This document shows positions 42,900 through 53,712 of a stretch of DNA of 64,000 nt, in pieces. The notes beneath the pieces were generated by a model. That model made no database searches and had not been told where the DNA came from. It saw only the letters and a program-made list of their open reading frames with translations. A program made the position numbers and the translations under genes. The DNA is taken from positions 14,917-78,916 of the forward strand of contig CBFHXB010000004.1 of the NCBI GenBank assembly GCA_965659685.1. The letters are read 5' to 3'. Origin of the DNA: Candidatus Poseidoniaceae archaeon. GTDB taxonomy: Archaea; Thermoplasmatota; Poseidoniia; Poseidoniales; Poseidoniaceae. Positions within the stretch are counted from its first letter, which is position 1, and every line of letters starts with the position of its first letter.

Positions 42900-44084
42900 T
42901 CAAAACGCGGTCGAGCAGGTCGGATCGACGGCCTCAAACCACGCCATGGCGTCCAAACCACCGTACCCTGTTCGATCGTCATGAACGCCCCCCAAGGAAC
43001 TTCTCAGGGCTTCTTTCACATGCGTCACGCACCGGTCGTCTCCAACGCGCATGTCTGGATGAGCCTCCAAAATCATCGCCAAAGCGGACGTGACGAGGAC
43101 GGTTGAAACCGAAGTTCCACTGGATGAAAACCAAGCGTCATCAGCACCCGTTGAAATGACGTTGACGCCCGGAGCATGAACTTCTGGCTTCATGTTCGGA
43201 TCTTCACCAAGTCCACTTCCGCTGGAGGAATTGGTCCAAATTTCACCCGATTCGTTGGAGGCGGCCACAGAGATGACCCGAGGCAAGAAAGCAGGGGATG
43301 CCACACGCCCGTCGTCGTCAGGACCACCGTCGTTGCCGGCCGCAGCGACCACGAAGATGCCCGCATCCAGCGCCCGCCGGACGGACGAAACGACCACGTC
43401 GCGTTGACTTTCGACCTGTTCCCCCCCCAAGGAGAGGGAAATGAGGTCGGCCTCGAAGCCCGTTCTGCACCAATCGATGGCCTCGGCACCGACGGCGTCG
43501 TCGCCCGTGTTTTCACCCTCGTCGTCGCCAGAGAGGGCTGCTGCAACCCCCAAGGTCACGCCTGGCGCGGCCCCTTTCTGATGGCCGTCGGCCATCATCA
43601 GCCCCACCATCATCGTGCCGTGGGCGGTTGCTCCCCGATCGAGAGGAGCGGTTGAACCTCCGATGAAATCACGAAACACCACGTCGATGTCGGACAACGC
43701 AGAGTGGCTGGTGTCCACCCCTGTGTCCACCACGCAGACCCGAACACCCGAGCCATCGTAGCCTTCGTCTGCGAGATCTCGAAGGCCGGTGCTTTCGAAG
43801 GCCCATTCAGAATCGTCAAGCGGGATTTCAACGAACAGCCACCCCTGAGAGGCGATCAAACCTGCAAGGATAACAAGCACCACCAATCCGAGCGAAGAAC
43901 GGGCGACGCGCCGGCGTCGATGCGGTACTGCGCTGACCAGCGTTGGAGCCCAGCCCATGACCTCAGAGCGCCATTCAGCTTCGTGCTCCACCGCGGATGG
44001 GTCCACGGCGGTCAGCATACGCGGTTCTCCCGGCTCCGGGAGGAACTCCATGCCTTCCAGCGCCGACGGCCTCACGGCTGACAT
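42900..44084 (-). CDS. Membrane-anchored S8 (subtilisin-like) serine peptidase
   Basis: Triad motifs VVDTG, HGT, GTS; oxyanion AAGNDG; ISLSLG; N-terminal TM; GGAGG RBS. Confidence 0.9.
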   Translation of the reverse strand: MSAVRPSALEGMEFLPEPGEPRMLTAVDPSAVEHEAEWRSEVMGWAPTLVSAVPHRRRRVARSSLGLVVLVILAGLIASQGWLFVEIPLDDSEWAFESTGLRDLADEGYDGSGVRVCVVDTGVDTSHSALSDIDVVFRDFIGGSTAPLDRGATAHGTMMVGLMMADGHQKGAAPGVTLGVAAALSGDDEGENTGDDAVGAEAIDWCRTGFEADLISLSLGGEQVESQRDVVVSSVRRALDAGIFVVAAAGNDGGPDDDGRVASPAFLPRVISVAASNESGEIWTNSSSGSGLGEDPNMKPEVHAPGVNVISTGADDAWFSSSGTSVSTVLVTSALAMILEAHPDMRVGDDRCVTHVKEALRSSLGGVHDDRTGYGGLDAMAWFEAVDPTCSTAF

Positions 44085-44118: not shown

Positions 44119-47100
44119 TCAGAAGCGACGGCTGCCGGAACGGGACAGGTTCAGTCCACCCCAAATCACCAAGCCAACGATGGCGATCACCAGTCCAGCC
44201 AGGACCGTCTGACCGATGCCGTTGTTGTCTGTGTTGGTTTCGATGTTGAAGCGGATTTGGAAGTCCACTGGCTCGTCACCCGTTCCACGGGTGTCCTCGG
44301 CGATGACAGCAAAGTCGCCGTCGTCGCCCGTCACCTCAAGGTAGAATTCGAACCGCTTGTTTCCGTTCGTCATCGTGCCCACGTCGAATTCCGCATCCAC
44401 GGTTTCGCCTGCGGGAACGGAGAGGGTCACCTGCTGGTACACCTCGTCAACCCCTTGTTGCCGTGCGTAGACAATGACGGAATTGATCGCGTCGCGCTCA
44501 CCGCTGTTGGTCACCGGAATGACGAGCGTCGTCACGGCTTGCTCAGCGGTGTTGTCTGAGCGTTGAACCGCCAAAGACTGGTTCACGCTGAGCGAAATTT
44601 CCGCATAGACCACGGTCATCAACAGACTGTCGCTGCTGCCGTCGAGTTCGGAAACACCGACGGTGACGTCGAGTTTTCCACTGTCGAAGGACTCGTCCGA
44701 GCGCACCGTGAAGGCTTGTGTTCGGGTGTCACCAGCAGCCACGGTGATGGTGCTCGTCGCAGGAGTGATTGCCCAGAGCGTGGCGTCGTAATTCTCGACG
44801 ACTTCGAAGGTGTACGTGGCGTCACCGTTTCCGGTGTTCGTAATCGTCGTGGTGAGGGTTTGAGCGTCTCCGCTGCCAATCCCCACTCGTGCGTCGTCGG
44901 CTTCCACCTCAAAGCCACGGATTACCGGCACGCGCACGGTCATCGAGCGCTCGGTGAACTCACCGGTTTCAGCGGCCAGGAGCACGTTCACGCTGTGTCC
45001 GTTTTGGAGCGCAAGCGACGTGTTTTGATCGGGCAGGTTGACCCTGACGTTCAGCGTGGCGGTCATGGGCACGTCATCCGTCGAGGCGTTTTCACCGATG
45101 CCGAGGCGAATCTCGAGCGATGTTTGCCACGCTTCCGACGTGCTGTTCCAGAATTCAACGCTCCAATCGGCTGCGTCGGGTGCGTTCCCCGCGTTTCCGG
45201 TCGCGGTGTACACGTCTTCGAACTCCGTGCCGTCGTAGGTCACGTCCACGGTGAATTCCACCGAGGTGTGCTCGTATTCTCCGTCTTGCTTGGCTTGGAT
45301 GTCCACACCGCTCTCGTCGTTGGTGAACGCGTCCACGGTCAGTTCATCGACGGTACCGACCTCGATGATGAGGTCACGGTCCGCACGGCGGTCCAAGGTG
45401 AGCGTCAATTCCTGACGGTCTGCGGCGACGTTGGTGAAGGTGCTGCCTTCGTAGCTCATGTTGAGGGCAAGGGCGTGTTGCACCGTGACCATGTCAGCAG
45501 CAAAGGAGACGCGACCGGATGGCACGAGGAGGCTCAGGCCGCCGTCGTCGTCCAAGGTCACGTCCCATGAGATGTCCTCGTCAAGGTCCACGGTGACCGT
45601 GGGGCCCTCGCTGATCATCGAGGCGCCGTCCGAGGCGCTGCCCAAATGGTATTGGACGAGGTCGATGCCCGTCCACGCGGTCTGAAGGTCGATGAAACCG
45701 CCAATGGCCATGGTCTGGTTGATGTGACCACCAGAGCCGACGCTTGCGTCAAGCAAATCGATGGCTACGGCGCCGTCGTTCTCGCCAAGGTTGGCCTGTT
45801 GAACGACAACGACCCACGCACCCGGTTCGACTTGTGCATCCCATGTCAGGGTGGTGCCGTCGAAGGACGTGCTGGTCACGGTGATGGAATCACGGGCCAA
45901 TCCAGAGGCGGGGTGAAGGACGACAGAAGCGCCGTCAAGACGGGTCGCATCCACGTCATCCGTGATGGCACCGCTGACGTCGACCAGGCCCACAGAGACC
46001 TCGAGGTCTTCGGACATCGCACTGTCATTGACGACGTAGGATCCGTTTCCATCAAGGTCGTAGGCCATGTTGGCGAATCCTTCCTTGCTGCCTTCCACGA
46101 TGTACGACGTGCGGACAGGCACGAAGAGTTCCCAGACACCGTCGTCGTTGGAGGTGACGTTGGCCGCAAAGGTCGTGCCGTCGAGGCTCGTCACGTTCAC
46201 CACGACCCCTGCAACGCCTTCGTCGGCGTCCGGCGAATCGTCGGCGTCAAGGTCCCAGTAGAGCCGCCCACCGATTTCCACCTCGTGGTCGGCGAACAGA
46301 TTCGTCACGTTCACCGACGCCCCGGAGGAGGCGGTGAAGGGGCTCGACGACGTGTCGAGCGTCCAGCGGTCTTGGGCGTCTTCGCGCTCCATGTGAACCG
46401 ACCACGTGCCGGGCATCATGGGCTCGCTGACGTGGCCTTCATCGTCGGTCAGGTCGAGGGAAACGTTGCCAAGACCGTCCGCAGAAACGAGGGTCATGCG
46501 GAAGCCAGAGAGGTTCTTCTCGCTGAGTGCTTCACGGAGGTGAAGGTGCACATCGGCAGCATCCACCGTCGCCAAGGCGAGGTCAATGCGAGCGCTGTTC
46601 TCGTTCACCGCCAAGGCGTGGCGGAGGATTTCCGTGCCGTCCTCTCCGTCGAAGGCCCCGACCACGGCGATCCAATCGCCGCTTGGGACGTAATCCGCGA
46701 AGGTTCCGTTCTGGTCCACGGCGACGTTGCGGTAATCGGTGCCGTCGGAGGAAACCAACAGCACGCTGTCGCCTTGAGGCTGCAACGCAGTCCCGTTCGC
46801 GTCCACGAGCGAACCGGTCATCCGCCAGTCGTCCACAAGGGCCACGTCAATGGCCTCGATGGGCTCGGGGATGCCAATGACGATGGCCGCGAGCGGTGAC
46901 ACCGGAACGAGGGCGTAATCGCTGGCGTTCTCCGAGGAGGCGTCTTGGTCAGCGAATTCGATGACGTAGGAACCGATGGGCATCTCGACGGTGAGGCTGC
47001 CGTTGGCGGCATACATGTCGGAGGTCACGTTGAGTCGTTCACCGTGAACCGTTGTGGGCACGAGGGCGAAGGCCGGAGTCACCATGCTTCCGTTGGAGGC

Positions 47101-50100
47101 GTTGCCGTCACCGGCCACGTCTTGGAAGACTTGGAAGGTCATGGCATGGCCGCCAGGGTTCAGGTAGAGGCTTGCGGGTTCCGGCATCTCCACAGGGTTG
47201 CGCACCACGAGGACGTCGTCGTCCGACGTCGCGTTGTACATCTCATCTTCCACGACGCTGATGTCGTAGATTCCTGCAGGGAGGTTGAACAGGAAACCGC
47301 CGTCTTGGTTCGACGAGGCTTGCCACACAACACCGTCGGATGACATCGCGGTCATCTCGACCGGCATCCAACCAGGGATTTCGCTGTCCCAGGTGGTGGC
47401 GTTGTCGATGTGGAACAAGGTCCCGCTGACCATCTCTGTTGGTTCAAGAACGATGCTCAAATCCTCCATCCCTTCGGTGACGGTCACAAGGCTGCCGTTT
47501 CCGTAATCGATGGTGTTCTTGACCATGGTGACGGAGTAGGTGTTGCCGATCGGCACACGCATCGAGAAGTGACCCGTGTCGTTGGTGGTCGCCGTGAACG
47601 TAAGGTCGTCAAAGCCGGTGGCCACAACTTCGAGTTGAGTCACGGGCTCCGTCTCACGGCCTGTGTCCTCGATCCACGCTTCGTAGTTCTCAAGGAGGAG
47701 CGGCGAAGCAACGGTCCCGTTGAGCCAAGTCGATGCAGCGTAGGTCATCGTGGTGGAGAGGTCCTCTTCACCGACCTCAACGCGGGCAAGGAGCAAGTGG
47801 TCTTCGTCCGCATCATCGGACACCGTGTAGACGCCCATGGGCAGTTCGACGTAGACCACACCGTTTTCATCGCTGACCACCACGTATGGTTCGAGTTCTG
47901 GAGCGTCGTTGACGAAGGTCACCGTGCGTCCAACCACGTCAACCGTTGGCTGGCCGTCGTTTCCAAACGGAGCCTCCAACTGGACGGTCAGGTCGGTCAT
48001 CGGTGGCAGCGGGTAGGCCAACGTGATGTTCACAGGCTCGTCTTGGACGGTGAAGGTTTCGTTGATTTCGTACCATCCGTCGTTGTCGACGTCCACGCGG
48101 TAGAAGTACTCACCAGAAGGAATCGGTCCTTGGCTGAAGCTTCCGTTCTCGTCGGTGACGATGGTGACGGCGTGATCGAGGCCGAGGACCGTGTCCACGA
48201 GTTCGATGGTGGTGTCTGGAAGCATGTTGCCCTCCATGTCCTCAAGCACGTCAGCAAAGACGGCCCCTGGCATGGTCATCGCAAGGTCGTAGGACGCTTC
48301 GACGCCGACAACAACGGGGTCAGGAAGCAACACTTCCCGACCGTTTGGCAACACACCAATCATGTTGTAGACACCAGGCATCAGGCCCGTCTTGTAGAAG
48401 GAGCCGGGCTGGACCATCGGTCCAGAGAAGTCACCTTGTCCGGTGAACAATCCGGTCCCGTTGAGGGTCCCAGTGCCCTCGAAGACACCTGCGCCTTCGA
48501 AGGTCTGACCGACCACGTCCCGGACCACGACGGTGGGCGAGAGCGTTTCGACACGACCGCTGGCTTCAACGGTGCCCTCGAAGAGGTACTTGGTCGCGTT
48601 TTCAGCACCGGTGAGCATGCACACCGAGGTGTTGGCAGGCGTTGCGGTGTTGTTGTCCAAACAATCCGAGGCGTTCACGAGGTCAGATTCACTGACCCAA
48701 CCGTCGATGATGCCGCGGCCGGTCCACGTGCCGTTGGCGGTGTGGATGCGATCTCCGGTCAACTGACGGGTGTAGGTACCGGTGAACCCGCGGGCAACGG
48801 CCACGCCGTCGGACTCGAAGGTTCCATTTTCGGTGAAGGTCACCTCACCCGTACCTTGGAGAATCCGGGTTTCGTCGCTGGTGAAGGAACCGTTGTTGGT
48901 GACCACAGTGTGGTTGTCGGTGTAGGACCAGATGTCCCGAAGGATGAAGGTCGTGTCCACGAGGGGTTCACCGGCGAAGGATTCGTCACCGATCCAGGTC
49001 ACGACACCGCTCACACCGCTGGAGGCGACGGACACGTCGGCCGCGCGGTCAAGGGCGACCACGCGGTTGGCTTCATCACCGCTGACGTTGAGGTGGGATT
49101 CACCGACCCACGTCATGTTCGCCACCTGTCCGAGGACGGCGGTGATCTCGTTGATGGTGCGGTCATCGTTGTATTCGGTCAAGATGTCACCGAGGTTTTC
49201 GGTGAACGAACCGTCTTGGATGCTGTTGCGCGCACCCGTGGGTTCGTATTCGCCGATGAAGGCGCTCACACGGATGTGACCTGCGGGGGCAAGGAAGCTG
49301 TAGCGTCCTTCGTCGTCGGTGTCCACGAATCCGATGGGGATCCAGTAGGTGTCGGCATCGAGGTCTTCTCCGGACTCGCCAGAGAAGGCGTCGCGCTCGA
49401 TGAGGAGGCGGACGTTTTCGAGCGGCTGGCCGTCGTCGGCAAAGGTCACCTGACCGGTCATTTCAGCACCGGGGTAGAACTTGAGGATCTTGACCATCGA
49501 GTTGGCTTGTCCGTAGCTGTTGGTCTCCGTGATGTCGTCGTTGTAGTTGGCGAGGACGAAGTGGTTCATCATCGCACCAGGGAGCGGCAGAGCCTGCGAC
49601 AGGAAGGTGCCCGGCGAACCGCTCTGACCGAAGTGCTGAGCAGGTTGCGGGTTCACGCCATCGCTGTCGACGCCGAGCGTCGATGCGCCGTAACCGACGT
49701 AGGCGCGCGCCACCATGGTGTCGAAGAACTGAGCCGTATGGTCGGCCCGCACGTCGAGGATTTGGACAGGATCGATTTCTGCTCCGGCCTGCTGATTCAG
49801 CACGTCTTGACGGATCGCCTCATCCACCTCTTCTCGGGTCATCTCGTCGGAGAATGCGCCACGTTGGGTTTCGTAGACTTCCGTCAGGAAGGTGGTCGGG
49901 TCTTGACCAGAAAGGATGGTCGGAGCCGCAAAGATGCCCATGGGCTGCCCGCTGTTGTACTGTGCGTCCGCAGTGTAGCGTCCGGCACGGGGGTACAAAC
50001 GGTTGTCCACGGCGAAGTAACGGATTTCATGGTCGCGGTCCACGGTTTCGCCGGGCGCACCGTTGTAGTCCTGCACGGTGTAGGCCTTCTCAAGTCCGAT

Positions 50101-53100
50101 CACGTCGGCGTACAGGTCCATGACCTGGGCCTCTTCAAGGCCGTTGACGAGCAACTGGACCGTCATGGCGAGACGGGCGTTGGAACGGTGGATGTGGGTC
50201 GAAACCGAATTGAACTCCTCTGCGAGGTCGGCGGTGTACCAATACGCGCCAAACACGTAGTGCGTGACTTCGAATTGCGTGTCGGTGGTGAGCCTCACGT
50301 TGTTGTTGAAGGAGCGGTTCGCGTCTTCTTGGGAGGTGAAATCGCTTCCGTCGCAGCCGCTGGCCAGGCTCTCAACACAGGCGAGGATGGCACCGTCCTT
50401 CCAGAGGCGCCAGCGCTCATCGCTGCTGGTGGTGCCGTCGTCGTTGAGCTTGTAGCCCTGCGTCATCACGGTGTCGCGGTTGGTCTGAATCACGCGGAAC
50501 GAGGCGTCCAACACCTCGATTGGAAGGCTCAATTCCTTCTCTTCTCCTTCGACGATGCGGGTCGCGTCCGTGAACTCCGTTCCGTCGTTGATGTCGAGCA
50601 ATGCGTCGTACTGAGCGTCGGAAAGGTGAGCCCTCAGCACCGCGTCAAAGGACGGGGTGAAGGTGGTCTCGTAGCCACGATCGGCCGCATACATACGGTC
50701 GCCTTCAGCGAGTTGCCAAAACCACATGGCCGCGAGGTCGGCTTCACCGCGGGCAAGGAGCATGTTTCCGGTCGCAGGGATACCCGACTGGAAGTTGTCC
50801 GAAACCGAGGGGTGGTCACCGGAGGTCAAGGCTTGGAAACCGTAGTCCCACCATGAGACGAAGGCGGGCTTTTCGGAATACGAATCGTTGCTGTCCTGTG
50901 CGGCAAGCCACGCGTAGGCGTCATTCCAACCCTGTTGGTTGAAACTGCTGCCAAAGGAACCGAGGTAGCGCATCCCACCGTCTTCGTAGTTGGTTGGGTT
51001 GAGCACGGAGAAGCCGGCGAGTTGGTCCCAACGAAGGATGTCAGGAATGACGTTGTACAAGGTCTCGTCAATGTCGTCCTCAGCGGGTGAGGAGCCGGGG
51101 ATTCCGGCGTCGAGACCGTAGGTCATGTGCTGGCCACCGAGCATGATCATGACGAGCATGATCGCACTGAACTGTGGCGTACGCCACACGGCCTTGCGGG
51201 TCGCAGCAATGCGGTCTGCAGGTGTTCGAACACCGTGGCGACGCATCTTTCGCGACATTTCCTTGGTGCCGGACCAGCCCCAGAGGCCGACGGCGCCCCA
51301 AGCGCCGAGCACGGCCATGGCCGGCGTGGCGTTGAAGATGAAACGAGCCGCGGTCCACGACATAAAGATGGCAAGAAGGATCCAGGTGGCCATGAAGATG
51401 TGCTCATGACGTCGCTGGCGGGTCCCGCGCCAAAGCGCGATGATGCCCATGCTCAGGGCGAGGATGAACACAATCGGGCCAAAAGACGCGAAGAGCAAAC
51501 CTCGGTCTGGCGCGTTTGCTTCAGCAACCGTTCCGAAAATCTTGGTCTTGGTGAAGTAGCCTGCTCCGGTGAACAACACGTTGAACGCGTTGGATTGCTC
51601 AAAGAATTGAAGCAACCAAATCACGGCCACGAACACCACGGCGGCTCCCGTCAAGGAACCGAGCACGAGGAGCCACGGCTTGTCGCGGAATCCGGTGGTC
51701 ACGTACGCGATGGCCACCGTGAAACCGAGCACGAAGAGCAAGGGCTGCAATCCGGTGCCGCTGAAGACGAGGTCCATGCCGGGGTAGGCGTAGAAGGGCA
51801 TCGAGAGGAGCAACGTGGTCCCCAACATCGTCAGCATGAGCATGCTCAGCGTCGTGCTGTCCTTGTTCCGGAACATGTTGGTGGCCACGATGTACACGTA
51901 GCCCACGAACAGGATCGACGGTGCGACGACGAATCCCTTCCAACCGAGCGCCACAACGCCAAAGGCAACGCCGGCCAGTGCAGCGTTTGCAACGGCAAAG
52001 CGGCGATGGGTTGCCACGTCGCCAAAGGCGCGAAGCACGCTGTAGGGGCGGGCGTCGGTGGAGCGGGTCAGGCGTTCGTCGCCGCCCGAGGCCATGGCGC
52101 GAAGGAACCACATGAAGCCGAGCGCCATGAAGAACATCACGAAGGCGTCGTGGTCCGCGTTGGCCCACGTCGAGCGTGAGATGTGACCGGGCATCATGGC
52201 GATGAGCCATGCGGCGACGACGGCAGCGGGCTTGCTGACGTGGTCACGAGCGATGGCGGCCACAGGGAACACGGTCAGGGCACCAAAGATGGCGGGGATG
52301 GACACCATCGCCCACCACACGGCGTCCTCGGGGGTCGTGAGGAAGGGTTCGAGGATCATCGCCAACAGGGCGATCGACCAAACGAACAAGGGTGGACGCG
52401 GGTTGATGCCACCGAGCGGGTAGAAGCGATCTGCGTCAAAGACCAGGTGCGCGTTTTGCATCATGATGTAGTCCACAACGCGCTTCATGTACCATGGGTC
52501 AGAACCCCCGGTGAGGTCCCAATCGCCGGTACCGTACCCGTTCATGGCGGGAATGATGTACCACTGGCTTCGGATGACGAAGGCCACCAAGAAGGCCGCC
52601 GCGATCATGACCTGCGACCAGTGTGCGGACCAGAAGGTGCGGGCGCCACTTGGCGCGTCATCGGAACGGTTGGACCAACCGCCCCAGGAATTGTGGGTGG
52701 CGATGGAGTAGATGCCGAGGCCGATGAAGAACGTGATGCCGAACCAAACCACAGCGCCCCAGGAGCCGTCGAAATTGTCGTTGGTCCACATGCCCATCTC
52801 AAAGGCTGCGGAAACGAGGTACAGCACCCACATCGAGGCGAGGGTCATCGCACGGGTCAACCAGCGTTCCGCGACCATGCTGGCCACGGCGAGCGCGACG
52901 ATGCCGGTCAGCACCGCTGCCCACACAGAAAAGTGGCCGTGGTAACCTTCGACGCCGCTCAGGGCGAGTCGGTCATGGAGTTCAACGCGGTGGAATTGCA
53001 CCAGCGCAAGTGCATGGGCGGCGACCCAGGTCAGAAGACCGAGCTGCAAAGGCAGGCTGTTGCGGTCCCAAGGACCGTCGAAATCGGACAGGTGCCCAAA

Positions 53101-53712
53101 CCAGCCCTCGCCGGGCTCGCTCAACACGCCACGTGCCAACACGGCAACCAGCGCACCAAGCACGGTGAACATGATCCAGGCGTTGAAGAAAACGAAACCG
53201 AGGGCCTCTCGGTATTCGTTGAGCGTCGGGGCGGTCTGCCCTTCGAAGGTGTATTCCGTGGTCACAAGGCCACTGGAGCCGGTGGTCGCTGCGGCGATCA
53301 AGCCGAGCAGCAGGCCGACGCTCGAGAAGACGAGGACGGTCGCCCACTCTGCGCGCTCCGACGTCATCAAAACGTGTGCGCCGACAAGGTTGACGGCGAA
53401 GAGCAAGCCGACGAGTGCGCCAACGCCAGCGGCGGGAAGCGCGACCAAGCCGAGGGCCGCACCGGCGACGATCGTCCCGAGAGAGAGGGTGGACGTCGAC
53501 GCGGGAATGACCTCGCGCTCAGCGAGGAGGCTCGGCACGCGGCCGAGCATGGCGCCCGCGGCCACAATCAGCAGCGGGTACAGGTCGTTCTCGAATCCGA
53601 GGCCGAAGCCTCCGATTTGGTCGGTGAGCATCGCCAAAAGGACGGAAATCGGCGCAAGAAGCAGGCCGAGCAACGCCTTTGACGACACGGTCGTCTCGTT
53701 CGTGGTGTTCAT
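44119..53712 (-). CDS. aglB: Giant oligosaccharyltransferase AglB/STT3 (3197 aa) with N-terminal membrane extension and C-terminal beta-sandwich repeats
   Basis: DPWY (52489-52500), RPPLF, DHD, TVAE, WWDYG (50839-50853), DNFQ; then ~1750 aa of carboxypeptidase-regulatory-like/Ig repeats (T-TD-NG-F) and a terminal TM. Confidence 0.92.
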   Translation of the reverse strand: MNTTNETTVSSKALLGLLLAPISVLLAMLTDQIGGFGLGFENDLYPLLIVAAGAMLGRVPSLLAEREVIPASTSTLSLGTIVAGAALGLVALPAAGVGALVGLLFAVNLVGAHVLMTSERAEWATVLVFSSVGLLLGLIAAATTGSSGLVTTEYTFEGQTAPTLNEYREALGFVFFNAWIMFTVLGALVAVLARGVLSEPGEGWFGHLSDFDGPWDRNSLPLQLGLLTWVAAHALALVQFHRVELHDRLALSGVEGYHGHFSVWAAVLTGIVALAVASMVAERWLTRAMTLASMWVLYLVSAAFEMGMWTNDNFDGSWGAVVWFGITFFIGLGIYSIATHNSWGGWSNRSDDAPSGARTFWSAHWSQVMIAAAFLVAFVIRSQWYIIPAMNGYGTGDWDLTGGSDPWYMKRVVDYIMMQNAHLVFDADRFYPLGGINPRPPLFVWSIALLAMILEPFLTTPEDAVWWAMVSIPAIFGALTVFPVAAIARDHVSKPAAVVAAWLIAMMPGHISRSTWANADHDAFVMFFMALGFMWFLRAMASGGDERLTRSTDARPYSVLRAFGDVATHRRFAVANAALAGVAFGVVALGWKGFVVAPSILFVGYVYIVATNMFRNKDSTTLSMLMLTMLGTTLLLSMPFYAYPGMDLVFSGTGLQPLLFVLGFTVAIAYVTTGFRDKPWLLVLGSLTGAAVVFVAVIWLLQFFEQSNAFNVLFTGAGYFTKTKIFGTVAEANAPDRGLLFASFGPIVFILALSMGIIALWRGTRQRRHEHIFMATWILLAIFMSWTAARFIFNATPAMAVLGAWGAVGLWGWSGTKEMSRKMRRHGVRTPADRIAATRKAVWRTPQFSAIMLVMIMLGGQHMTYGLDAGIPGSSPAEDDIDETLYNVIPDILRWDQLAGFSVLNPTNYEDGGMRYLGSFGSSFNQQGWNDAYAWLAAQDSNDSYSEKPAFVSWWDYGFQALTSGDHPSVSDNFQSGIPATGNMLLARGEADLAAMWFWQLAEGDRMYAADRGYETTFTPSFDAVLRAHLSDAQYDALLDINDGTEFTDATRIVEGEEKELSLPIEVLDASFRVIQTNRDTVMTQGYKLNDDGTTSSDERWRLWKDGAILACVESLASGCDGSDFTSQEDANRSFNNNVRLTTDTQFEVTHYVFGAYWYTADLAEEFNSVSTHIHRSNARLAMTVQLLVNGLEEAQVMDLYADVIGLEKAYTVQDYNGAPGETVDRDHEIRYFAVDNRLYPRAGRYTADAQYNSGQPMGIFAAPTILSGQDPTTFLTEVYETQRGAFSDEMTREEVDEAIRQDVLNQQAGAEIDPVQILDVRADHTAQFFDTMVARAYVGYGASTLGVDSDGVNPQPAQHFGQSGSPGTFLSQALPLPGAMMNHFVLANYNDDITETNSYGQANSMVKILKFYPGAEMTGQVTFADDGQPLENVRLLIERDAFSGESGEDLDADTYWIPIGFVDTDDEGRYSFLAPAGHIRVSAFIGEYEPTGARNSIQDGSFTENLGDILTEYNDDRTINEITAVLGQVANMTWVGESHLNVSGDEANRVVALDRAADVSVASSGVSGVVTWIGDESFAGEPLVDTTFILRDIWSYTDNHTVVTNNGSFTSDETRILQGTGEVTFTENGTFESDGVAVARGFTGTYTRQLTGDRIHTANGTWTGRGIIDGWVSESDLVNASDCLDNNTATPANTSVCMLTGAENATKYLFEGTVEASGRVETLSPTVVVRDVVGQTFEGAGVFEGTGTLNGTGLFTGQGDFSGPMVQPGSFYKTGLMPGVYNMIGVLPNGREVLLPDPVVVGVEASYDLAMTMPGAVFADVLEDMEGNMLPDTTIELVDTVLGLDHAVTIVTDENGSFSQGPIPSGEYFYRVDVDNDGWYEINETFTVQDEPVNITLAYPLPPMTDLTVQLEAPFGNDGQPTVDVVGRTVTFVNDAPELEPYVVVSDENGVVYVELPMGVYTVSDDADEDHLLLARVEVGEEDLSTTMTYAASTWLNGTVASPLLLENYEAWIEDTGRETEPVTQLEVVATGFDDLTFTATTNDTGHFSMRVPIGNTYSVTMVKNTIDYGNGSLVTVTEGMEDLSIVLEPTEMVSGTLFHIDNATTWDSEIPGWMPVEMTAMSSDGVVWQASSNQDGGFLFNLPAGIYDISVVEDEMYNATSDDDVLVVRNPVEMPEPASLYLNPGGHAMTFQVFQDVAGDGNASNGSMVTPAFALVPTTVHGERLNVTSDMYAANGSLTVEMPIGSYVIEFADQDASSENASDYALVPVSPLAAIVIGIPEPIEAIDVALVDDWRMTGSLVDANGTALQPQGDSVLLVSSDGTDYRNVAVDQNGTFADYVPSGDWIAVVGAFDGEDGTEILRHALAVNENSARIDLALATVDAADVHLHLREALSEKNLSGFRMTLVSADGLGNVSLDLTDDEGHVSEPMMPGTWSVHMEREDAQDRWTLDTSSSPFTASSGASVNVTNLFADHEVEIGGRLYWDLDADDSPDADEGVAGVVVNVTSLDGTTFAANVTSNDDGVWELFVPVRTSYIVEGSKEGFANMAYDLDGNGSYVVNDSAMSEDLEVSVGLVDVSGAITDDVDATRLDGASVVLHPASGLARDSITVTSTSFDGTTLTWDAQVEPGAWVVVVQQANLGENDGAVAIDLLDASVGSGGHINQTMAIGGFIDLQTAWTGIDLVQYHLGSASDGASMISEGPTVTVDLDEDISWDVTLDDDGGLSLLVPSGRVSFAADMVTVQHALALNMSYEGSTFTNVAADRQELTLTLDRRADRDLIIEVGTVDELTVDAFTNDESGVDIQAKQDGEYEHTSVEFTVDVTYDGTEFEDVYTATGNAGNAPDAADWSVEFWNSTSEAWQTSLEIRLGIGENASTDDVPMTATLNVRVNLPDQNTSLALQNGHSVNVLLAAETGEFTERSMTVRVPVIRGFEVEADDARVGIGSGDAQTLTTTITNTGNGDATYTFEVVENYDATLWAITPATSTITVAAGDTRTQAFTVRSDESFDSGKLDVTVGVSELDGSSDSLLMTVVYAEISLSVNQSLAVQRSDNTAEQAVTTLVIPVTNSGERDAINSVIVYARQQGVDEVYQQVTLSVPAGETVDAEFDVGTMTNGNKRFEFYLEVTGDDGDFAVIAEDTRGTGDEPVDFQIRFNIETNTDNNGIGQTVLAGLVIAIVGLVIWGGLNLSRSGSRRF

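What the first reader, a model, noticed from the sequence alone, without database searches (positions are those of the whole stretch)
44119..49470. AglB of 3197 aa with a ~1750-aa beta-sandwich stalk and a second C-terminal membrane anchor
Seen: all core OST motifs in aa ~400-1000, then many carboxypeptidase-regulatory-like/Ig repeats and a terminal TM, so the extracellular part is tethered at both ends. Established: characterised AglB/PglB/STT3 proteins are roughly 600-1000 aa. Enlarged Thermoplasmata AglBs may already be in databases. Inference: the single-subunit OST carries its own scaffold, for substrate capture or folding of giant surface proteins or as a structural envelope element. This would parallel eukaryotic accessory OST subunits.
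Basis: partly seen in the sequence, partly recalled or inferred. Interest (0 to 1): 0.68.

Follow-up and report, generated by a model that had tools for sequence, protein, structure and literature searches.

The report
Giant double-anchored archaeal oligosaccharyltransferase (AglB)
The only N-glycosylation enzyme of this Marine Group II archaeon is a real 3,197-residue protein whose catalytic core is fused to extra membrane helices and to a long, sugar-site-rich chain of about 17 beta-sandwich domains that re-enters the membrane; this layout is conserved across the order, and I found no paper describing it.

Summary
Window 44119-53712 (-) is one intact 3197-codon gene; the finding's coordinates cover only its C-terminal 1783 residues. 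It is the only STT3/AglB gene in the 1.89-Mb genome.

- **Catalytic motifs:** the four I could place are present (GGSDPWY, ADHD, TVAE, WWDYG). I could not place the DK/MI motif.
- **Architecture:** 8-10 extra N-terminal helices; a lineage-specific proximal ectodomain (aa 1151-1900) as conserved as the core; about 1250 aa of divergent but length-constant beta-sandwich domains; one C-terminal helix with a conserved basic tail ending in Phe.
- **Not a chimera:**
  - 114 of the 121 listed protein clusters are full length, 3181±16 aa.
  - 148 of 151 Poseidoniales genomes have one copy.
  - The sister order has about 2350-aa forms.
  - At least 16 other Thermoplasmatota families have 2080-2850-aa forms; the six of these I read end to end are tail-anchored.
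- **Stalk properties:** very acidic, no sequence repeats, four invariant Cys, sequons enriched 2.7-fold and half of them positionally conserved. It looks like the genome's other giant surface glycoproteins.
- **Fold matches:** generic (BaTIE, pilins, S-layer, macroglobulin domains). There is no match to ribophorin or OST48.

My best reading (about 45%) is that the enzyme is a built-in, self-glycosylated part of the cell coat whose length is under selection. Substrate handling and proteolytic maturation remain open. I found no paper describing this architecture.

The parts
44119..53712 (-). Whole aglB gene, 3197 codons plus stop; the only STT3 gene of the genome
   Evidence: ORF list and translation; single STT3 match in the genome; 114 full-length orthologous clusters of 3181±16 aa
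52630..53712 (-). N-terminal extra membrane module, aa 1-361, 8-10 hydrophobic helices. Specific to the order; no Pfam family.
   Evidence: Hydropathy; no Pfam hit. Found only in Poseidoniales loci and not in 12 other Thermoplasmatota AglB loci. WWDYG lies at about 935-970 here, against 577-709 in the relatives that lack an N-terminal extension; two other families have it at 805-822.
51223..52629 (-). STT3/AglB transmembrane catalytic core, aa 362-830. Carries GGSDPWY (402-408), ADHD (519-522) and TVAE (728-731).
   Evidence: Pfam STT3 and TIGR04154; alignment to 3WAJ/5GMY; motif positions; motif residues at least 90% conserved in 50 sequences
50698..51222 (-). First part of the external catalytic domain, aa 831-1005, with WWDYG at aa 954-958 (nt 50839-50853)
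   Evidence: weak AglB_core-like Pfam match at aa 941-991; PDB 3vgp/3vu0 AglB C-terminal domains match aa 927-992
50263..50697 (-). Variable insert, aa 1006-1150. The least conserved stretch after the core, with indels. Holds invariant Cys1112 and Cys1120.
   Evidence: Conservation profile 0.28-0.38 with 27% gaps; length 139±5 aa; invariant Cys
48013..50262 (-). Conserved proximal ectodomain, aa 1151-1900, as conserved as the catalytic core. aa 1228-1590 are shared with most of the other Thermoplasmatota AglBs compared. No Pfam or PDB sequence match before aa 1800; weak SpaA and NOMO1-like Pfam matches at aa 1828-1886.
   Evidence: Identity 0.56-0.76 and median 0.66 against 0.64 for the core. 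BLASTP to 11 of the 12 other Thermoplasmatota AglBs compared. An exhaustive search finds only 169 representatives, all giant AglBs or fragments. No Pfam or PDB hit. AF2 shows helices plus beta, with low-confidence but conserved loops.
48424..48888 (-). Gly/Thr-rich module of unusually long beta strands, aa 1609-1763 (GTGxFxGxG motifs). Contains a variable sequon-rich loop between invariant Cys1684 and Cys1698.
   Evidence: AF2 strands of 14-26 residues at segment positions 610-764; invariant G/F/C columns; sequence
44233..48012 (-). Distal stalk, aa 1901-3160, about 12-13 beta-sandwich (Ig-like or CarboxypepD_reg-like) domains. Divergent in sequence, constant in length, acidic and sequon-rich.
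   Evidence: AF2 pLDDT 86, all beta. Pfam CarboxypepD_reg, SdrD_B, PLipase_C_C and FixG_C. Foldseek matches to BaTIE, hydin, macroglobulin and integrin legs. Length 1251±13 aa at median 37% identity. 25 sequons against 10.4 expected.
44152..44214 (-). C-terminal transmembrane helix, aa 3167-3187, ending in the conserved (Y/W)GG
   Evidence: Hydropathy 2.42; AF2 helix 3167-3191; conserved in orthologues, and present in all nine giant AglBs of other families that I read end to end
44122..44151 (-). Short basic cytoplasmic tail NLSRSGSRRF. The Arg and the terminal Phe are at least 90% conserved. No other protein of the genome has this tail.
   Evidence: no CTERM sorting-domain match
42900..44084 (-). 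Membrane-anchored S8 subtilase gene, 34 nt downstream with a GGAGGG ribosome-binding site. Its position after aglB is conserved in all three families of the order. It may belong to the same unit.
   Evidence: Pfam Peptidase_S8, E 8e-33; signal-anchor at aa 56-85 and intergenic sequence; synteny purD-aglB-S8-beta-helix protein in L014, L015 and L016

Best explanation
**Shown**
- This is the housekeeping N-oligosaccharyltransferase (AglB, GT66/STT3) of a Marine Group II (Poseidoniaceae) archaeon, made as one 3197-residue polypeptide.
- Order of parts: 8-10 extra helices, an STT3 membrane core with the four placed catalytic motifs intact, an enlarged and strongly conserved external domain (to about aa 1900), about 1250 residues of beta-sandwich domains, one transmembrane helix, and a short basic tail.
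- Hydropathy and charge fit an N-in topology, with the whole ectodomain outside and the tail back in the cytoplasm.

**Inferred**
- The proximal conserved part is an accessory extension of the catalytic domain.
- The distal part is a heavily N-glycosylated arch or spacer, modified by its own or a neighbouring catalytic site. It is selected for its length and domain number, not its sequence.
- The enzyme would therefore be a fixed constituent of the glycoprotein coat that this S-layer-uncharacterised lineage builds from giant C-terminally anchored proteins. That places the glycosylation site inside the coat and holds it at a set geometry.
- Like NOMO-type Ig rods, it would work as a membrane-anchored ruler. 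It is not a member of that family.
For: - **Intact single gene, sole STT3:**
- **Catalytic motifs aligned to 3WAJ and conserved:**
- **Architecture conserved:**
  - 114 clusters of 3181±16 aa.
  - 148 of 151 genomes in 22 genera carry one copy, with frames of 3124-3542 aa unless cut by contig ends.
  - Forms of 2290-2380 aa in the sister order, and 2080-2850 aa in at least 16 further Thermoplasmatota families. The nine forms outside this family that I read end to end all have a terminal helix plus basic tail.
- **Length selected, not sequence:** the distal stalk is 1251±13 aa and nearly gap-free at a median 37% identity.
- **Sequons:** 39 observed against 14.5 expected in the stalk (z 7.2). 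Orthologues average 44 against 19. 21 of 46 are positionally conserved, several in all sequences.
- **Same character as other surface proteins of the genome:** acidic, 2-3-fold sequon-enriched, C-terminal helix.
- **Confident all-beta models ending in a helix:**
- **Fold matches to rod-like Ig strings** (BaTIE, pilins, SdrD, the H. volcanii S-layer protein), with no enzyme domain.
- **Precedent for a ruler:** BaTIE-like NOMO rods set membrane spacing in proportion to Ig-domain number (PMC8327139).
- **Transcription:** aglB of a related MGII genome is transcribed in the sea (PMC9723583 supplement).
Against: - Nothing here measures abundance, glycosylation, oligomerisation or the shape of the stalk.
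- pTM values of 0.42-0.49 mean the domain arrangement (extended or compact) is not predicted.
- A mere spacer would not need the proximal 750 residues to be as conserved as the active site, nor a conserved cytoplasmic tail. These point to additional specific interactions.
- An arch with both feet in one membrane is an odd ruler.
- The envelope of Marine Group II cells has not been imaged, to my knowledge.
Confidence: 0.45

Rival explanations
1. Substrate-handling scaffold. The ectodomain would recruit, hold or chaperone nascent giant surface proteins, or dock the enzyme next to the Sec translocon. The C-terminal helix would pack back on the STT3 membrane domain, as the single helices of Ost1/ribophorin I and Wbp1/OST48 do in eukaryotic OST.
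For: - The proximal 750 aa are as conserved as the core and occur only in this enzyme lineage.
- Conserved loops at aa 1217-1271 and 1336-1412 are modelled with low confidence, as expected if their partner (the core) is missing from the model.
- The helix end and tail are conserved.
- The genome encodes dozens of giant sequon-rich substrates.
- The layout of beta-sandwich domains plus one helix is that of the eukaryotic accessory subunits (my knowledge of PDB 6S7O and 6EZN).
Against: - No sequence or fold match to any OST accessory subunit.
- The active site sits at the membrane surface, so about 1250 residues of distal, poorly conserved domains are not needed for capture there.
- The distal part evolves like an exposed surface, not like a binding site.
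Confidence: 0.2
2. Polyprotein. The chain would be cut outside the cell, for example by the membrane-anchored S8 subtilase encoded 34 nt downstream. That would release a normal-sized AglB and a separate C-terminally anchored surface glycoprotein. The fusion would then ensure co-translational glycosylation and 1:1 delivery.
For: - The S8 gene follows aglB in all three families of the order. It has a signal-anchor that puts the protease outside.
- Poorly conserved stretches with indels at aa 1006-1150 and 1651-1750 could be linkers.
- The stalk looks like the genome's free-standing type I surface proteins.
Against: - No split genes were seen. All shorter frames I checked were contig ends or masked bases.
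- The fusion also persists in lineages without the adjacent S8 gene: nine other Thermoplasmatota loci read over the same span, including the sister order, gave no S8 match.
- The first candidate linker lies upstream of a region shared with the 1411-aa AglB (L013), so it is inside the enzyme.
Confidence: 0.15
3. Trans-envelope tether. The C-terminal helix would insert not in the cytoplasmic membrane but in a second, outer membrane or in a neighbouring cell or vesicle. The stalk would then bridge two membranes at a fixed distance.
For: - The length is conserved and the Ig string is rod-like.
- A NOMO-type precedent exists for membrane spacing.
- From my own knowledge, unchecked here: double membranes have been reported for some wall-less Thermoplasmatota.
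Against: - The basic tail after the helix fits ordinary positive-inside insertion in the cytoplasmic membrane.
- No machinery for inserting a helix in an outer membrane is known.
- There is no evidence that Marine Group II cells have two membranes.
Confidence: 0.05
4. Assembly or gene-calling artefact joining an AglB gene to a surface-protein gene.
For: The source is a metagenome-assembled genome (35 contigs, 87% complete).
Against: - The same continuous frame occurs in hundreds of independent assemblies from several data sources, including single-contig genomes.
- G+C is uniform along the gene.
- There is no stop or frameshift.
Confidence: 0.01

Closest known systems
Archaeal AglB, long type: Archaeoglobus fulgidus AglB-L (PDB 3WAJ, 3WAK, 5GMY, 7E9S; 868-875 aa)
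   Same: - The STT3/GT-C membrane core aligns over about 420 residues (E 1e-12).
- It has the first-loop Asp motif, the D-H motif, a TIXE-type motif and WWDYG.
- The external C-terminal domain follows the last helix.
   Different: - It is 3.7 times longer.
- 8-10 extra helices lie in front.
- About 2240 residues follow WWDYG, against about 320.
- It has a second membrane anchor.
- The TIGR04154 score is far below that family's cut-off (168 against 450 bits).
- I could not locate a DK/MI motif.
   Same: - The core is 31-34% identical.
- 8 of the 9 share the region corresponding to aa 1228-1590 (L008 is the exception).
- All have a long beta-rich ectodomain, a single terminal helix and a basic tail.
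   Different: - They lack the N-terminal module.
- They have about 350-750 fewer stalk residues.
- Their tails differ and lack the terminal Phe.
- No adjacent S8 gene was found in the nine loci read over the full span.
- A 1427-aa form in another family lacks the anchor altogether.
NOMO (BOS complex, eukaryotic ER) and Bacillus anthracis BaTIE (PDB 6FWV)
   Same: - A string of prealbumin-like or CarboxypepD_reg-like Ig domains ending in a single C-terminal membrane anchor.
- BaTIE is the top Foldseek match (E 4e-13), and the NOMO paper names it as NOMO's closest structural relative.
- NOMO acts as a length-dependent membrane spacer.
   Different: - The Pfam NOMO1-like match is below its cut-off (18 against 27 bits).
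- The array is fused to an enzyme and is not a free type I protein.
- No nicalin or TMEM147 context.
- TM-scores are low (0.08-0.23), so the likeness is at the level of domain type only.
Eukaryotic OST accessory subunits (ribophorin I/Ost1, OST48/Wbp1, ribophorin II/Swp1)
   Same: Luminal or external beta-sandwich domains joined to one or a few helices beside STT3. This is a topological parallel only, drawn from my knowledge of PDB 6S7O and 6EZN.
   Different: - No Pfam match and none among the top 50 Foldseek matches.
- Here the domains are covalently part of STT3 and about ten times more extensive.
Archaeal S-layer glycoproteins, e.g. Haloferax volcanii csg (PDB 7PTP)
   Same: Acidic, N-glycosylated, multi-Ig-domain, C-terminally tethered surface protein. 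7PTP is Foldseek rank 5 for the proximal model (E 2e-8).
   Different: - No PGF-CTERM or other sorting domain, and no archaeosortase homologue was detected.
- No evidence of lattice formation.
- It is fused to the enzyme.

Membership tests
AglB / STT3 / PglB oligosaccharyltransferase (GT66, GT-C fold) | STT3 membrane domain scoring above the Pfam PF02516 cut-off | tested here: met
   55.1 bits against a cut-off of 24.5 for aa 404-664; 67.3 bits in the six-frame genome search
AglB / STT3 / PglB oligosaccharyltransferase (GT66, GT-C fold) | Acidic residue in the first external loop (Asp of GGxDPWY; D47 in AfAglB) | tested here: met
   GGSDPWY at aa 402-408 aligns to GGNDPWY of 3WAJ; at least 90% conserved in 50 sequences
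AglB / STT3 / PglB oligosaccharyltransferase (GT66, GT-C fold) | Second metal-binding motif (DxD / DxH; D161 and H163 in AfAglB) | tested here: met
   ADHD at aa 519-522 aligns to NDHH of 3WAJ; conserved
AglB / STT3 / PglB oligosaccharyltransferase (GT66, GT-C fold) | TIXE/SVSE motif in external loop 5 | tested here: inconclusive
   TVAE at aa 728-731 fits the pattern and is at least 90% conserved. The phmmer alignment to 3WAJ did not put it on TIAE.
AglB / STT3 / PglB oligosaccharyltransferase (GT66, GT-C fold) | WWDYG motif in the external C-terminal domain | tested here: met
   WWDYG at aa 954-958, aligned to 3WAJ 550-554
AglB / STT3 / PglB oligosaccharyltransferase (GT66, GT-C fold) | DK or MI motif forming the Ser/Thr pocket | tested here: inconclusive
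   I could not place a DxxK or MxxI pattern with confidence, either after WWDYG or in the conserved region aa 1228-1400. No structural superposition was possible.
AglB / STT3 / PglB oligosaccharyltransferase (GT66, GT-C fold) | Transfer of a lipid-linked glycan to Asn in N-X-S/T | not testable with these tools
   Needs an enzyme assay or genetics
NCBIfam TIGR04154 (archaeo_STT3, archaeosortase A system-associated subfamily) | Score above the curated cut-off of 450 bits | tested here: not met
   167.8 bits for aa 369-991. No archaeosortase homologue was found in the genome (the control search was weak).
NOMO / BOS-complex Ig rod | NOMO1-like beta-sandwich domains above the Pfam cut-off | tested here: not met
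   PF22902 scores 18-18.7 bits against a cut-off of 27. The likeness is at fold level only.
Eukaryotic OST accessory subunits (ribophorin I/II, OST48) | Sequence or fold match to those families | tested here: not met
   No such Pfam family at E<=0.1 in any piece; none among the top 50 Foldseek PDB matches of either model
C-terminal protein-sorting signals (PGF-CTERM and other CTERM domains) | Match of the tail to a CTERM sorting-domain model, plus a cognate sortase in the genome | tested here: not met
   No NCBIfam CTERM hit for the last 150 aa; no exosortase-family match in the genome

The most novel reading that the evidence does not exclude
Enzyme and coat may be one molecule. In Poseidoniales, and in shorter form across much of Thermoplasmatota, the stalk of AglB would be a principal, self-glycosylated structural element of the cell envelope. 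It would be an arch or tether of fixed length that sets envelope geometry. The downstream subtilase might mature it. N-glycosylation and envelope construction would then be physically coupled in some of the most abundant archaea of the surface ocean.
Probability: 0.25. Interest if true: 0.8.

Novelty: new variant of a known kind. Interest (0 to 1): 0.6.

Why it matters
AglB/STT3 is the central enzyme of N-glycosylation in archaea and eukaryotes. The characterised examples are single catalytic subunits of about 700-1050 residues.

Here the sole enzyme of a globally abundant, uncultured plankton lineage is three to four times that size. Its accessory parts are under strong selection: a proximal domain as conserved as the active site, a stalk of fixed length, and a conserved tail.

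- If the stalk is structural, it gives a first molecular handle on the unknown envelope of Marine Group II archaea.
- If the stalk handles substrates, it is an independent, covalent solution to the problem that eukaryotes solved with accessory OST subunits.
- Shorter tail-anchored forms occur in many other Thermoplasmatota, including lineages with complete small genomes. The question may therefore be open to experiment in cultured relatives.

Tried and rejected
- **Chimera or artefact:** rejected by conservation in hundreds of assemblies.
- **Shorter frames in relatives as evidence of gene fission:** G003 is a masked run of N. G103 and G101 are contig ends.
- **Internal sequence repeats:** none by BLASTP at E<=1, so there was no recent duplication.
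- **Sortase-type C-terminal signal:**
  - One relative (L010) ends in a PGF-like tail but does not reach any CTERM model's cut-off.
  - The window's tail matches none, and no exosortase homologue was found.
  - That search's control missed Haloferax, so its sensitivity is limited.
- **A shared tail motif in other surface proteins of the genome:** none. The WGG...RRF tail is unique to AglB.
- **Homologues of the N-terminal module** in other Thermoplasmatota AglB loci, or an origin as a duplicate of the STT3 core: none found.
- **Pfam or PDB sequence identity for the conserved aa 1000-1800:** none.
- **Ribophorin, OST48 or malectin likeness:** none.
- **DK/MI motif:** not located.
- **Literature:**
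  - No paper combines AglB with Marine Group II.
  - The only Poseidoniales paper that discusses an oligosaccharyltransferase reports only its transcription.
  - I searched a 2024 review of archaeal N-glycosylation for terms that would flag oversized AglBs (AglB sequence, amino acid, multiple AglB, domain). None of the 12 of 15 passages shown concerns them.
  - One broad search was uninformative.
  - The subscription paper of Nikolayev et al. 2020 on AglB evolution is not in the library, so I could not check it.

Full report
**Observation**

The minus strand of the window carries one uninterrupted frame, 44119..53712, of 3197 codons. The upstream stop lies only four codons before the ATG. G+C is even along the gene, 0.60-0.635. 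The finding's coordinates (44119-49470) cover only aa 1415-3197. Residue 1415 is exactly where the first CarboxypepD_reg-like beta-sandwich begins.

- **STT3 identity.** Pfam places STT3 at aa 404-664 (55 bits, cut-off 24.5). NCBIfam's archaeal STT3 model matches aa 369-991 (E 4e-49) but stays below its subfamily cut-off.
- **Catalytic motifs.** Against solved structures the best match is A. fulgidus AglB-L (3WAJ/5GMY, E 1e-12). GGSDPWY aligns on GGNDPWY, ADHD on NDHH, and WWDYG on WWDYG. The motifs lie at aa 402-408, 519-522, 728-732 (TVAE) and 954-958. They are at least 90% conserved in 50 orthologues. I could not place a DK/MI motif.

**Topology**

- Hydropathy shows 8-10 hydrophobic helices (aa 13-340) before the helix that aligns with STT3 TM1 (aa 362-387). 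The STT3 helices then run to about aa 793.
- No convincing membrane segment follows until a single strong one at aa 3169-3187, followed by NLSRSGSRRF.
- An even number of extra helices keeps the STT3 orientation. In that case everything from about aa 830 to 3166 is outside, and the basic tail returns to the cytoplasm.
- The outside part is very acidic. In aa 1450-3150 there are 282 Asp+Glu against 60 Lys+Arg.
- The whole protein has only four cysteines (1112, 1120, 1684, 1698). All four are invariant, which suggests two disulfide loops.

**Not an artefact, and not rare**

- A homologue search restricted to long proteins found 830 clusters. The 120 listed are all from Marine Group II or Poseidoniaceae-type assemblies from several archives. 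The 114 full-length clusters (this protein included) measure 3181±16 aa.
- The genome holding the window (1.89 Mb, 35 contigs, 87% complete) has this one STT3 gene only.
- In 151 genomes of the order (3 families, 22 genera), 148 have exactly one copy. Frames are 3124-3542 aa, except where a contig ends or bases are masked.
- The sister order of the class has 2290-2382-aa forms.
- At least 16 other families of the phylum have forms of 2080-2850 aa. Other families have 1150-1450 aa or about 900-1000 aa.
- I fetched 15 of these loci. All nine giant forms outside this family that I could read end to end finish in one hydrophobic helix and a basic tail; the others were cut by a contig end or by masked bases, and L014 belongs to this family. 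A 1427-aa form does not have this ending.
- The N-terminal helices are confined to the order.
They carry generic names there.

**Anatomy of the extension**

Conservation along 38 full-length orthologues divides the extension into three parts.

- **aa 1006-1150, variable insert.** Identity is 0.28-0.38, with indels.
- **aa 1151-1900, proximal ectodomain.**
  - It is as conserved as the catalytic core (median identity 0.66 against 0.64).
  - Part of it (aa 1228-1590) aligns with most of the other Thermoplasmatota AglBs compared.
  - It has no Pfam or PDB sequence match before aa 1800. aa 1828-1886 give weak SpaA and NOMO1-like Pfam matches.
  - An exhaustive search of 1.8 billion representative proteins found it in only 169, all of them giant AglBs or their fragments.
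- **aa 1901-3160, distal stalk.**
  - Identity is only 37%, yet it is nearly free of gaps (1251±13 aa).

AlphaFold2 with a 50-sequence alignment gave the following.

- **Proximal model, aa 1000-2150 (pLDDT 75.5):**
  - Helices and sheets first.
  - Two conserved but low-confidence loop regions, probably lacking their partner in the model.
  - A first beta-sandwich at aa 1416-1486.
  - A striking Gly/Thr-rich module of 14-26-residue strands at aa 1609-1763.
- **Distal model, aa 2100-3197 (pLDDT 86):** about 11 beta-sandwich domains, then a helix at aa 3167-3191.

In all there are roughly 17-18 beta modules. They are not sequence repeats.

Foldseek against the PDB returns only generic strings of Ig-like domains:

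- BaTIE (E 4e-13)
- Gram-positive pilins
- SdrD B domains
- the H. volcanii S-layer protein
- hydin
- alpha-2-macroglobulin MG domains
- integrin legs

There is no enzyme domain and no OST accessory subunit among them. TM-scores are low and pTM is 0.42-0.49, so the overall shape is not predicted.

**Signs of glycosylation**

- N-X-S/T sequons are not enriched in the membrane parts or in aa 830-1450.
- In the stalk there are 39 against 14.5 expected (z 7.2). Orthologues average 44 against 19.
- 21 of the 46 sequons are at the same column in at least half of 38 orthologues. Five stalk sequons (N1532, N1542, N1694, N1751, N2416) are in all of them.
- This is not peculiar to AglB. The genome encodes many giant, acidic, signal-bearing proteins (5511, 4577, 3050, 2982 aa and more). 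Most have 2-3-fold sequon excess, and many have a C-terminal helix.
- The stalk therefore looks like one of the organism's own surface glycoproteins, welded to the enzyme that modifies them.

**The tail and the neighbour**

- The end of the helix and the tail are conserved. The pattern (Y/W)GG...R...[KR]F-COOH holds within the family, and the final Phe holds in all three families.
- No other protein of the genome ends this way.
- The tail matches no CTERM sorting domain, and I found no exosortase homologue (that control was weak).
- Thirty-four bases downstream, behind a GGAGGG ribosome-binding site, lies an S8 subtilase with an N-terminal signal-anchor. It is therefore an extracellular, membrane-bound protease.
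- The order purD - aglB - S8 - beta-helix surface protein is kept in all three families of the order. No S8 match was found in the nine other Thermoplasmatota loci, including the sister order, that were read over the same span.

**Interpretation**

What is shown:
- a single, intact AglB with the four catalytic motifs I could place, which is the cell's only one;
- an external extension of about 2200 residues, tethered at both ends by topology.

What is inferred:
- The proximal, core-like conserved part most likely belongs functionally to the catalytic domain.
- The distal part behaves like an exposed, glycosylated spacer in which domain number, not sequence, is selected.
- I therefore favour (about 45%) the reading that the enzyme is a fixed component of the glycoprotein coat, acting as a membrane-anchored ruler or arch.
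- The NOMO/BaTIE literature gives a precedent for Ig rods that set a distance in proportion to their domain number.
- The conserved tail and proximal domain are not explained by a pure spacer.

The rivals stay open:
- **Substrate-handling scaffold** whose terminal helix docks on the core, about 20%.
- **Polyprotein** matured by the adjacent subtilase, about 15%.
- **Trans-membrane tether**, about 5%.
- **Artefact**, 1% or less.

**Comparison and novelty**

- It is a member of the AglB/STT3 family by every sequence feature I could test, except the unplaced DK/MI motif.
- It is not a member of TIGR04154 by that model's cut-off.
- It is not a member of the NOMO family, the OST accessory subunit families or the CTERM-sorted protein families.
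- Literature searches:
  - No paper combines AglB with Marine Group II.
  - The only Poseidoniales paper that discusses an oligosaccharyltransferase reports only that the gene is transcribed in the field.
  - I searched a 2024 review of archaeal N-glycosylation for relevant terms. None of the passages shown concerns oversized AglBs.
  - The library lacks some subscription papers, notably Nikolayev et al. 2020. 'Undescribed' therefore means undescribed in what I could search.
- Earlier notes of this scan on other genomes describe the same architecture and reach the same conclusions. They are not independent evidence.
- I rate it a new variant of a known kind. It is of real interest to archaeal glycobiology and to marine microbiology, with the function still open.

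Noticed in passing
window 42900-44084 (-): A membrane-anchored S8 subtilase (signal-anchor aa 56-85) lies 34 nt downstream of aglB with its own GGAGGG ribosome-binding site. Its position after aglB is conserved in all three families of Poseidoniales. It may be a maturation protease for AglB or for surface glycoproteins.
   Followed up: partly
window 44122-44214 (-); loci L015, L016: The AglB C-terminus carries a conserved signature, (Y/W)GG at the helix end and a basic tail ending in Phe. It is found on no other protein of the genome and matches no known CTERM sorting domain. Its function is unexplained.
   Followed up: partly
window 48424-48888 (-): A highly conserved Gly/Thr-rich module (GTGxFxGxG motifs) is modelled as beta strands of 14-26 residues. 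A variable, sequon-rich loop sits between two invariant cysteines. It has no Pfam or PDB match and could be an oligomerisation or binding element.
   Followed up: partly
whole genome G000 (e.g. contigs C22, C5, C8, C3): This 1.89-Mb genome encodes an unusually large set of giant, acidic, signal-bearing proteins (5511, 4577, 3050, 2982, 2836 aa and more). Most have 2-3-fold excess of N-X-S/T sequons and many have a C-terminal helix. A few smaller proteins end in PGF-like tails.
   Followed up: partly
locus L010 (genome G184, another Thermoplasmatota family): Its 2357-aa AglB ends in ...GMPGFEALGLVSSLAAAALLLGRRRRWAG, which resembles a PGF-CTERM tail. It scores only weakly (below cut-off) against the Heimdall-CTERM and Loki-CTERM models. 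In that lineage the second anchor might be a sortase substrate.
   Followed up: partly
window 47410-50856 (+): A 1148-codon open frame lies antisense to aglB. It is the kind of long shadow ORF expected in 61% G+C coding DNA, not a gene.
   Followed up: no
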